Program-made: the position numbers and the translations under genes | The notes under the pieces: model-generated | Databases searched by the model: none | What the model saw: the letters and a program-made list of their open reading frames with translations, nothing else | Told to the model about the DNA's origin: nothing | Part shown: piece after piece, positions 34,014 through 34,690 of the stretch | Layout: each line of letters begins with the position of its first letter | Position numbering within the stretch: the stretch's first letter is position 1 | NCBI GenBank assembly: GCA_951406725.2 | Contig: OX597814.1 | Coordinates: 14,198,001-14,262,000, forward strand | From: Octopus vulgaris | Lineage: Eukaryota | DNA length: 64,000 bases | Direction: 5' to 3'

Positions 34014-34690
34014 ATATGAAAAAACAAGTCAAAATAGAAAATGCTAAAATAATTTTATAAAGAACATTTCAGTACCGGTTTCGGTCATTTTGAGACCTTT
34101 TCAACTGTAACGATTAAATAACGATTCTTCTTCTTCTTCTTCTTCTTCTTCTTCTTCTTCTTCTTCTTCTTCTTCTTCTTCTTCTTCTTCTTCTTCTTCC
34201 TTTTCTTCTTCTTCTTCTTCTTCTTTTTCTTTTTCTTCTCCACCTTCTACCTCTTAACTTTATCACTAATGCTTTTTAGTATAACACCTACGCAAATTCC
34301 ATAAACAAACCTTTCAATAGAAATATTCTCCTGAATTGAACTGCAACTGCTAGTCGCCACTGACCATTCAAAATACGACCATCAAGGCACTCCCAAATTT
34401 TTCCACCCCCTCACCTCATCAACCTTCTTCTTCTTCTACCCTACCAAGAATTCACAACGACCTCGAACACACAAGTGCAAACAAAGGAGACAGAGAAAGG
34501 CAGAATGCCACTTATATTTGAACACTATACAAATATATTCCTTTAAAAAAACTTTTCTTCTAATTTTTCTAAATTTAATTATTTAATCGTTACAGTTGAA
34601 AAGGTCTCAAAATGACCGAAACCGGTACTGAAAAGTTCTTTATAAAATTATTTTAGCATTTTCTATTTTGACTTGTTTTTTCATATATAT
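34014..34690 (+). mobile_element. Fold-back PLE terminus with ~110 bp near-perfect inverted arms and internal (TTC)n
   Basis: 34014-34121 is the reverse complement of 34579-34690 with about one mismatch; TA flanks; hammerhead motif in each arm. Confidence 0.8.
34593..34630 (+). ncRNA. Minimal type I hammerhead ribozyme, U3-A8 variant (second copy 34070-34107, minus strand)
   Basis: CAG-UUGAAAA-GGUC-UCAAAAU-GACC-GAAA-CCGG-UA-CUG; palindromic stem III ACCGGU, GUA triplet. Confidence 0.8.

What the first reader, a model, noticed from the sequence alone, without database searches (positions are those of the whole stretch)
34070..34630. Clean U3-A8 compensatory hammerhead, identical in both arms of a young fold-back
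Seen: CAG UUGAAAA GGUC..GACC GAAA CCGG UA CUG on both strands. C3 and G8, which pair in the active fold (established), are both changed, to U and A, so pairing is kept. The same double change appears in an unrelated family at 50334-50379 (UUGAUAA). Inference: a paired change in two families argues for selection on catalysis.
Basis: partly seen in the sequence, partly recalled or inferred. Interest (0 to 1): 0.75.

Follow-up and report, generated by a model that had tools for sequence, protein, structure and literature searches.

The report
Penelope-type hammerhead with U-A core
This is a small hammerhead-shaped RNA motif duplicated in a fold-back copy of a very common repeat, likely the truncated end of a Penelope-type jumping gene; its unusual U-A core pair and mirror-image layout are both already published, so it is an ordinary new example.

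Summary
A type I hammerhead with U3/A8 and a palindromic helix III sits in both arms (34010-34121, 34579-34690; 111 of 112 bases match) of one insertion flanked by (AT)n. Only the right end carries a further 30-base tail. The sequence is a high-copy repeat family (5,501 and 4,253 contig records in two runs). This matches the published anatomy of a 5'-truncated Penelope-like element (PLE) with an inverted copy, although no RT or endonuclease remnant was found in it. Natural U3-A8 covariation is in print (PMC3088659), as are about 1,300 U3-A8 hammerheads found through a Schistosoma PLE and opposite-strand pairs 100-700 bp apart (PMC4209133). My scan of 37 PLE loci gave 16 hammerheads: 12 C-G, one each U-A, U-G, A-U, U-U. 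That fits family-level selection on pairing. The two arms are one event, not two, and a read-through transcript is predicted to bury the ribozyme in a 111-bp duplex. Cleavage is untested. This scan noted U3-A8 PLE hammerheads twice before on other genomes.

The parts
33970..34017 (.). (AT)24 microsatellite, left flank and likely insertion target
   Evidence: Tandem Repeats Finder; sequence
34010..34121 (-). Left arm: inverted, 5'-truncated 112-nt copy of the element's 3' end, without the tail
   Evidence: other copies also end at the equivalent place and run into (AT)n (loose ends at 34690 in 74 and 58 contigs)
34070..34107 (-). Hammerhead copy in the left arm (N3 34104, H17 34073), identical to the right-arm motif
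34108..34126 (.). Inversion junction with an 8-nt local duplication (34108-34115 repeated at 34119-34126)
   Evidence: read from the sequence; reading it as a template-switch mark is inference
34125..34239 (+). (TTC)38 run, likely internal to the element and where the direct copy is 5'-truncated
   Evidence: other copies also carry this repeat before 34238 (loose end in X9)
34240..34578 (+). Body of the direct copy; high-copy repeat sequence with no detectable RT or GIY-YIG remnant
   Evidence: depth in all bins of all four runs; tblastn best E 0.55; HMM best E 0.91
34579..34690 (+). Right arm: 3' end of the direct copy; carries the minority allele at 34634
34593..34630 (+). Type I hammerhead: 3-bp stem I, core with U3 (34596) and A8 (34601), 4-bp stem II with 7-nt loop, palindromic 6-nt helix III, predicted cleavage after 34627
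34691..34720 (+). 30-nt extension present at the right end only (PLE-type tail)
   Evidence: covered by contigs in all four runs; feature described in PMC8557442
34721..34739 (.). (AT)n right flank
   Evidence: sequence
50335..50378 (-). Second U3-A8 hammerhead-like motif of another repeat (N3 50373, H17 50340), imperfect stem I, also followed by (AT)n
   Evidence: no similarity to the first family beyond shuffles

Best explanation
The locus is one insertion of a high-copy repeat, likely a Penelope-like retroelement or a non-coding derivative moved by one, in which a 5'-truncated direct copy and a shorter inverted copy of the same 3' end each carry a type I hammerhead motif with a U3-A8 core. 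Shown: the anatomy, the (AT)n flanks, the one-sided tail, the high copy number of the family, and the same fold-back layout beside real PLE genes in other loci. Inferred: target-primed reverse transcription copied the 3' end twice in opposite directions, which explains the near-identity of the arms. In the source element the motif would work as a dimer, two copies pairing through the palindromic helix III, and cleave slowly or with protein help after 34627. U3-A8 is likely a tolerated swap of C3-G8, reached through a U3-G8 wobble and kept by selection on the source family. At this locus a read-through transcript from either side would form a 111-bp duplex that blocks the ribozyme fold, so this copy is most likely a passenger.
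For: Arms, flanks, tail. These match the PLE features listed in PMC8557442: inverted 5'-truncated copy, 30-40 bp tail at one end, microsatellite targets. Family: 5,501, 4,253, 576 and 73 contig records laid in four runs; tail-less ends into (AT)n in 74 and 58 contigs; two opposite-strand joints in other copies. Of 10 PLE loci self-compared, 4 have an inverted copy of the 3' end just upstream of the gene match, 3 of them including the hammerhead (L016, L029, L030). L034 has the same seven-base U3-A8 core 185 nt after a 944-aa stop-free PLE-like frame. Energies: double hammerhead -18.5 versus monomer hammerhead +0.9 kcal/mol; arm duplex -166.9; stem II probability 0.0 in the fold-back RNA. In print.
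Against: No RT or endonuclease remnant in this copy, so the tie to a coding PLE is by anatomy, not by sequence. The motif lacks the extra base between positions 9 and 10.1 that PMC4209133 calls conserved in minimal PLE hammerheads, and it aligns weakly to the canonical HH9 model. The 3-8 tally is small and many of the 12 C-G loci are kin; one locus is unpaired U-U. Only 40 of 79 variant rows were shown, so low-level independent variation at 34596 or 34601 is not excluded. The most stable predicted dimer (-21.1) lacks stem I.
Confidence: 0.8

Rival explanations
1. The family is a non-LTR retrozyme: a short non-coding tandem repeat with a canonical-type hammerhead that makes circular RNA, of which this is a stray fold-back monomer.
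For: No coding remnant. A 4-bp stem II without the bulged base, and a weak HH9 alignment. A 2026 preprint argues that retrozymes are non-autonomous PLE derivatives (abstract and passages), so the two classes may grade into each other.
Against: No tandem array with period up to 500 in 33400-35400 other than microsatellites. No long-range back-joints in the joint table. The direct copy is about 600 nt, above the 150-450 bp of PMC7229834. Stem I is 3 bp rather than 6. The one-sided tail and inversion are PLE marks.
Confidence: 0.1
2. This particular fold-back is functional for the host or the element: either it cleaves a host transcript, or it produces long double-stranded RNA that silences the family.
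For: Arms 111 of 112 identical; predicted arm duplex -166.9 kcal/mol.
Against: Near-identity is expected from a single insertion event. Inversions occur in other copies and other PLE loci. The best run holds only 0.54 of the sampled words and no listed piece spans the stretch, so there is no sign this exact copy is conserved.
Confidence: 0.05
3. U3 and A8 are AT-biased decay of a dead hammerhead that happen to pair; there is no selection on catalysis.
For: C-to-U and G-to-A are common transitions (own knowledge) and the window is about 35% GC. A decayed locus with U3-U8 exists (L029). Hammerhead mutants did not affect insertion in vitro in one PLE.
Against: No variant row for 34596 or 34601 among the 40 shown in a family of thousands of contig records, and a subfamily with different upstream sequence keeps U3 and A8. 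About 1,300 U3-A8 motifs in Schistosoma. L034 sits after an intact frame. No C3-A8 among 16 loci.
Confidence: 0.05

Closest known systems
U3-A8 minimal hammerheads of Cercyon Penelope-like elements, Schistosoma mansoni (Cervera and De la Pena 2014, PMC4209133)
   Same: Type I topology, U3-A8 core (their motif 4 has the same seven core letters and is marked as PLE-associated), short stem I, dual motifs 100-700 bp apart on opposite strands, expected dimer cleavage.
   Different: Here stem II is 4 bp with no bulged base before 10.1, helix III is a 6-nt palindrome, H17 is A, and no PLE ORF is retained in this copy.
PLE insertion anatomy (Craig et al. 2021, PMC8557442)
   Same: Inverted 5'-truncated copy, 30-40 bp tail at one end, microsatellite target.
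   Different: Clade not assignable without protein. Naiads, which prefer (TA)n, lack canonical hammerheads; this element has one.
Natural U3-A8 core covariants (Perreault et al. 2011, PMC3088659)
   Same: C3-G8 covaries to U3-A8 in several natural hammerheads; the paper says such covariants were already shown active in vitro.
   Different: Those passages do not concern PLE dimers; activity of this motif is untested.
Non-LTR retrozymes (Cervera and De la Pena 2020, PMC7229834)
   Same: Non-coding animal repeat with a type I hammerhead and weak palindromic helix III.
   Different: No tandem 150-450 bp array here, short stem I, circular RNA untested.

Membership tests
Type I hammerhead ribozyme | Core N3-U-G-A-N-N8-A plus G-A-A-A and U-H around three helices, with 3 and 8 able to pair | tested here: met
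   shuffles 0.067 sites per window, 0 in 60 with a Watson-Crick 3/8 pair
Type I hammerhead ribozyme | Rfam hammerhead model at gathering score | tested here: not met
   none; HH9 20.9 and 18.1 bits against 52
Type I hammerhead ribozyme | Site-specific self-cleavage | not testable with these tools
   needs an in vitro assay; only contigs were available
PLE minimal hammerhead | Short or palindromic helix III favouring a dimer | tested here: met
   6-nt palindrome; dimer -18.5 versus monomer +0.9 kcal/mol
PLE minimal hammerhead | Extra base between positions 9 and 10.1 | tested here: not met
   extra = 0; feature listed in PMC4209133
Penelope-like element | RT plus GIY-YIG ORF upstream of the hammerhead | tested here: inconclusive
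   none detected in the ~460 nt retained; the copy appears 5'-truncated and no full-length member could be read (no whole genome)
Penelope-like element | Inverted 5'-truncated copy of the 3' end | tested here: met
   same layout in 4 of 10 PLE loci compared
Penelope-like element | 30-40 bp tail at one end only | tested here: met
   34691-34720 on the right only; both end types among family contigs
Penelope-like element | Dispersed multicopy family with AT-rich or microsatellite targets | tested here: met
Penelope-like element | Spliceosomal intron in the pLTR | tested here: inconclusive
   acceptor-like CAG right before U3 with 69% pyrimidine upstream, no clear donor in 34122-34590; no splice joint listed
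Non-LTR retrozyme | Head-to-tail tandem units of 150-450 bp | tested here: not met
   at this locus; genome-wide arrangement not testable
Non-LTR retrozyme | Abundant circular RNA | not testable with these tools
   no raw RNA reads were offered

The most novel reading that the evidence does not exclude
A whole high-copy, non-coding PLE-derived family has fixed U3-A8 in a hammerhead intermediate between the minimal PLE type and the canonical retrozyme type. Its stem I 5' strand doubles as a 3' splice site, so splicing would swap stem I and switch cleavage on or off, while fold-back copies like this one supply antisense RNA that shuts the family's ribozyme down.
Probability: 0.08. Interest if true: 0.5.

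Novelty: new member of a known kind. Interest (0 to 1): 0.17.

Why it matters
It adds one more natural U3-A8 hammerhead family and a tidy example of how PLE-type insertion duplicates the motif on both strands. The role of PLE hammerheads is still open (PMC8557442, PMC11167929), and a high-copy family fixed for U3-A8 would be a usable test case once a genome is at hand. The variant and the layout are already described, so a specialist would not be surprised.

Tried and rejected
Whole-genome copy count: no genome held. Coding remnant near the two U3-A8 motifs and the third motif: tblastn with 11 PLE proteins and an HMM from them found nothing significant, while the control PLE remnant at 16421-17916 scored E down to 1e-97 and 3e-44. 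A 7-residue likeness to an endonuclease C-terminus at 34321-34341 had E 2.0 and is not counted. Shared ancestry of the two U3-A8 families: scores equalled by 418 and 407 of 1,000 shuffles; rejected as undetectable, not as absent. Folding z-scores of the three monomers are unremarkable (-1.05, -0.27, 0.20). Expression: no RNA holder listed; X9 and X19 are only guessed to be RNA, so no claim on transcription, splicing or cleavage is made. Seven other repeat or fold-back regions of the window showed no C-G or U-A hammerhead core. Conservation of the motif within the family: 1 of the 40 shown variant places lies in the 38-nt motif, about 3 expected by length (hand estimate), not significant, and 39 rows were hidden. 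The window's three hammerhead-bearing stretches have no significant nucleotide match in the 58 loci (best E 0.059). Lunse et al. and Przybilski and Hammann 2007 were not held, so rates for U3-A8 constructs were not seen.

Full report
Observation. The window is AT-rich, microsatellite-laden animal-type DNA; no whole genome is held. A resemblance of its repeats to octopus repeats is recalled and comes from no call. The two arms lie at 34010-34121 and 34579-34690, 457 nt apart, and match at 111 of 112 bases; the single difference is outside the hammerhead. Each arm holds a type I hammerhead: 3-bp stem I, core UUGAAAA (U3, A8), 4-bp stem II with a 7-nt loop, GAAA, a 6-nt palindromic helix III and H17 = A at 34627 (+) or 34073 (-). 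Sixty shuffled windows gave 0.067 sites each and none with a Watson-Crick 3/8 pair. Rfam gives nothing at gathering score and weak HH9 matches on both arms (E 0.018, 0.14).

Anatomy. The unit is flanked by (AT)24 on the left and a shorter (AT)n on the right. The right end has 30 extra bases (34691-34720) that the left arm lacks, and the inversion junction carries an 8-nt local duplication before a (TTC)38 run. Passages of PMC8557442 (12 of 18 places shown) list these marks for Penelope-like elements: an inverted 5'-truncated copy, a 30-40 bp tail at one end, and microsatellite targets. No protein remnant was found between the arms: 11 PLE proteins (two of them checked and confirmed as RT with a GIY-YIG match) gave best E 0.55 by tblastn and 0.91 by HMM, while a separate PLE remnant at 16421-17916 scored strongly.

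Family. Twenty of 24 listed runs hold part of 34236-34722, best share 0.54, none on record as RNA. I laid 4 of the 20. They gave 5,501, 4,253, 576 and 73 contig records, with depth in all 29 bins; the tool warns that depth is not a copy number, so I claim only 'high-copy'. Loose ends at 34690 run into (AT)n in 74 and 58 contigs, like the left arm, while depth also continues over the tail, so both end types exist. Two opposite-strand joints show inversions in other copies. Of 79 variant rows 40 were shown. The only one inside the motif is 34617 C to T (12-45% of depth), which keeps a G-U pair in stem II; none is shown for 34596 or 34601, but 39 rows were hidden. A loose end at 34611 (40 contigs in X1, 2 in X19) shows a subfamily with different upstream sequence and A at 10.1 that keeps U3 and A8. 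At 34634 the left arm has the family majority base and the right arm a rare one. One difference in 112 gives a 95% interval of 0.02-4.9%.

Independent test of covariation. A PLE protein alignment retrieved 58 loci. I took the 38 whose match runs far towards the C-terminus, dropped 1 for too little flank and scanned 37 downstream stretches with 3 and 8 free: 16 had a hammerhead and 21 had none; chance was 0.08 for the whole set. Pairs: 12 C-G, 1 U-A (L034, same seven core letters, 185 nt after a 944-aa stop-free frame), 1 U-G (L007), 1 A-U (L008), 1 unpaired U-U (L029, longest frame 117 aa, whose inverted copy is C-G). Many C-G loci are close kin, so this is a small sample. In Fig S3 of PMC4209133 (supplement parts 1 and 2 of 3 read) I counted by eye 53 C-G, 2 U-A and 1 U-G among 56 motifs; that set was collected with fixed descriptors and is biased. 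Of 10 loci self-compared, 4 have an inverted copy of the 3' end just upstream of the gene match, 3 including the hammerhead. The fold-back layout therefore occurs beside PLE genes. The two U3-A8 families in the window share no similarity beyond shuffles, which leaves independent origin possible but unproven.

Mechanism. Predicted energies: the monomer hammerhead fold is unfavourable (+0.9 against a minimum of -6.6 kcal/mol); two copies pairing through helix III give a double hammerhead at -18.5, close to the dimer minimum of -21.1, which lacks stem I. The arms pair at -166.9, and stem II probability in the fold-back RNA is 0.0. On either strand the antisense copy is transcribed before the sense motif, and there is only one sense motif per strand, so cleavage in cis from read-through RNA is unlikely (inference). 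Only an RNA starting between the arms would escape, and it would need a partner in trans. I infer that selection on the 3-8 pair acted on the source element, and that this copy is a passenger.

What is known. PMC3088659 (passages) reports C3-G8 covarying to U3-A8 in several natural hammerheads and says such covariants were already shown active in vitro. PMC4209133 (parts 1 and 2 of 4 of the text read) reports the U3-A8 variant from a Cercyon PLE search with about 1,300 hits in Schistosoma mansoni, dual motifs 100-700 bp apart on opposite strands, palindromic helix III, dimer dependence and low in vitro activity. PMC11167929 (passages) shows 3/8 single mutants kill and a double mutant partly restores a PLE hammerhead, that cleavage needs protein, and that it is not needed for insertion in vitro. 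PMC6765202 and PMC3884650 (passages) give the dimer model and the C3-G8 pair; PMC7151607 and PMC6155905 (passages) added nothing on U3-A8. PMC7229834 (passages) and bioRxiv 10.64898/2026.07.22.740005 (part 1 of 5 and passages) define the retrozyme rival; the preprint's supplements are closed and might list related families. Two papers on PLE dimers and 3-8 exchanges were not held. Five searches turned up no description of this particular family, but Repbase-type libraries were not searched. Two earlier notes of this scan reached the same reading on other genomes; none matched this sequence or place.

Verdict. It is a real hammerhead-shaped motif and works like a PLE pLTR hammerhead. Membership of a coding PLE family is likely from anatomy but not shown by protein. 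It differs in detail from the minimal consensus (no bulged base before 10.1, 4-bp stem II). New member of a known kind; interest 0.17.

Noticed in passing
L008:1567 (+): Hammerhead with an A3-U8 core 50 nt after a PLE gene match, related by stem II to C3-G8 motifs in L003 and L005. A possible natural A-U swap, or decay; single contig.
   Followed up: partly
L007:1901 (+): U3-G8 wobble core downstream of a PLE gene in a locus with a 507-aa stop-free frame: a candidate intermediate between C-G and U-A.
   Followed up: partly
window 34550-34595 and 34612-34656 (+): Pyrimidine-rich tract ending in CAG right before U3 looks like a 3' splice site, as in D. virilis Penelope; an ATG inside loop/stem II opens only 14 codons.
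   Followed up: partly
window 63820-63870 (-): Third hammerhead-like motif with standard C3-G8 core, 8-nt palindromic helix III and 4-bp stem I; its stem II is weak and long-looped.
   Followed up: partly
window 16421-17916 (-): Decayed Penelope-like RT remnant with frameshifts, 30-54% identical in segments to 11 PLE proteins; no convincing hammerhead downstream.
   Followed up: partly
window 58767-60896 (+): 709-aa stop-free frame that looks like a LINE-type reverse transcriptase (from motifs, not searched); older related pieces at 18605-19172 and around 46715-47772.
   Followed up: no
window 43140-43977, 20276-20978, 22166-22480, 57738-58308, 58396-58834, 14379-14893, 50079-50161: Several other fold-back or inverted repeats without a hammerhead core; likely MITE-type or other transposon ends.
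   Followed up: partly
window 23359-23883 (-): 174-aa Asn/Thr-rich stop-free frame; no match to the PLE profile.
   Followed up: partly
window 48102-48503 (+): 133-aa frame resembling a Tc1/mariner transposase fragment (recalled motif, not searched).
   Followed up: no
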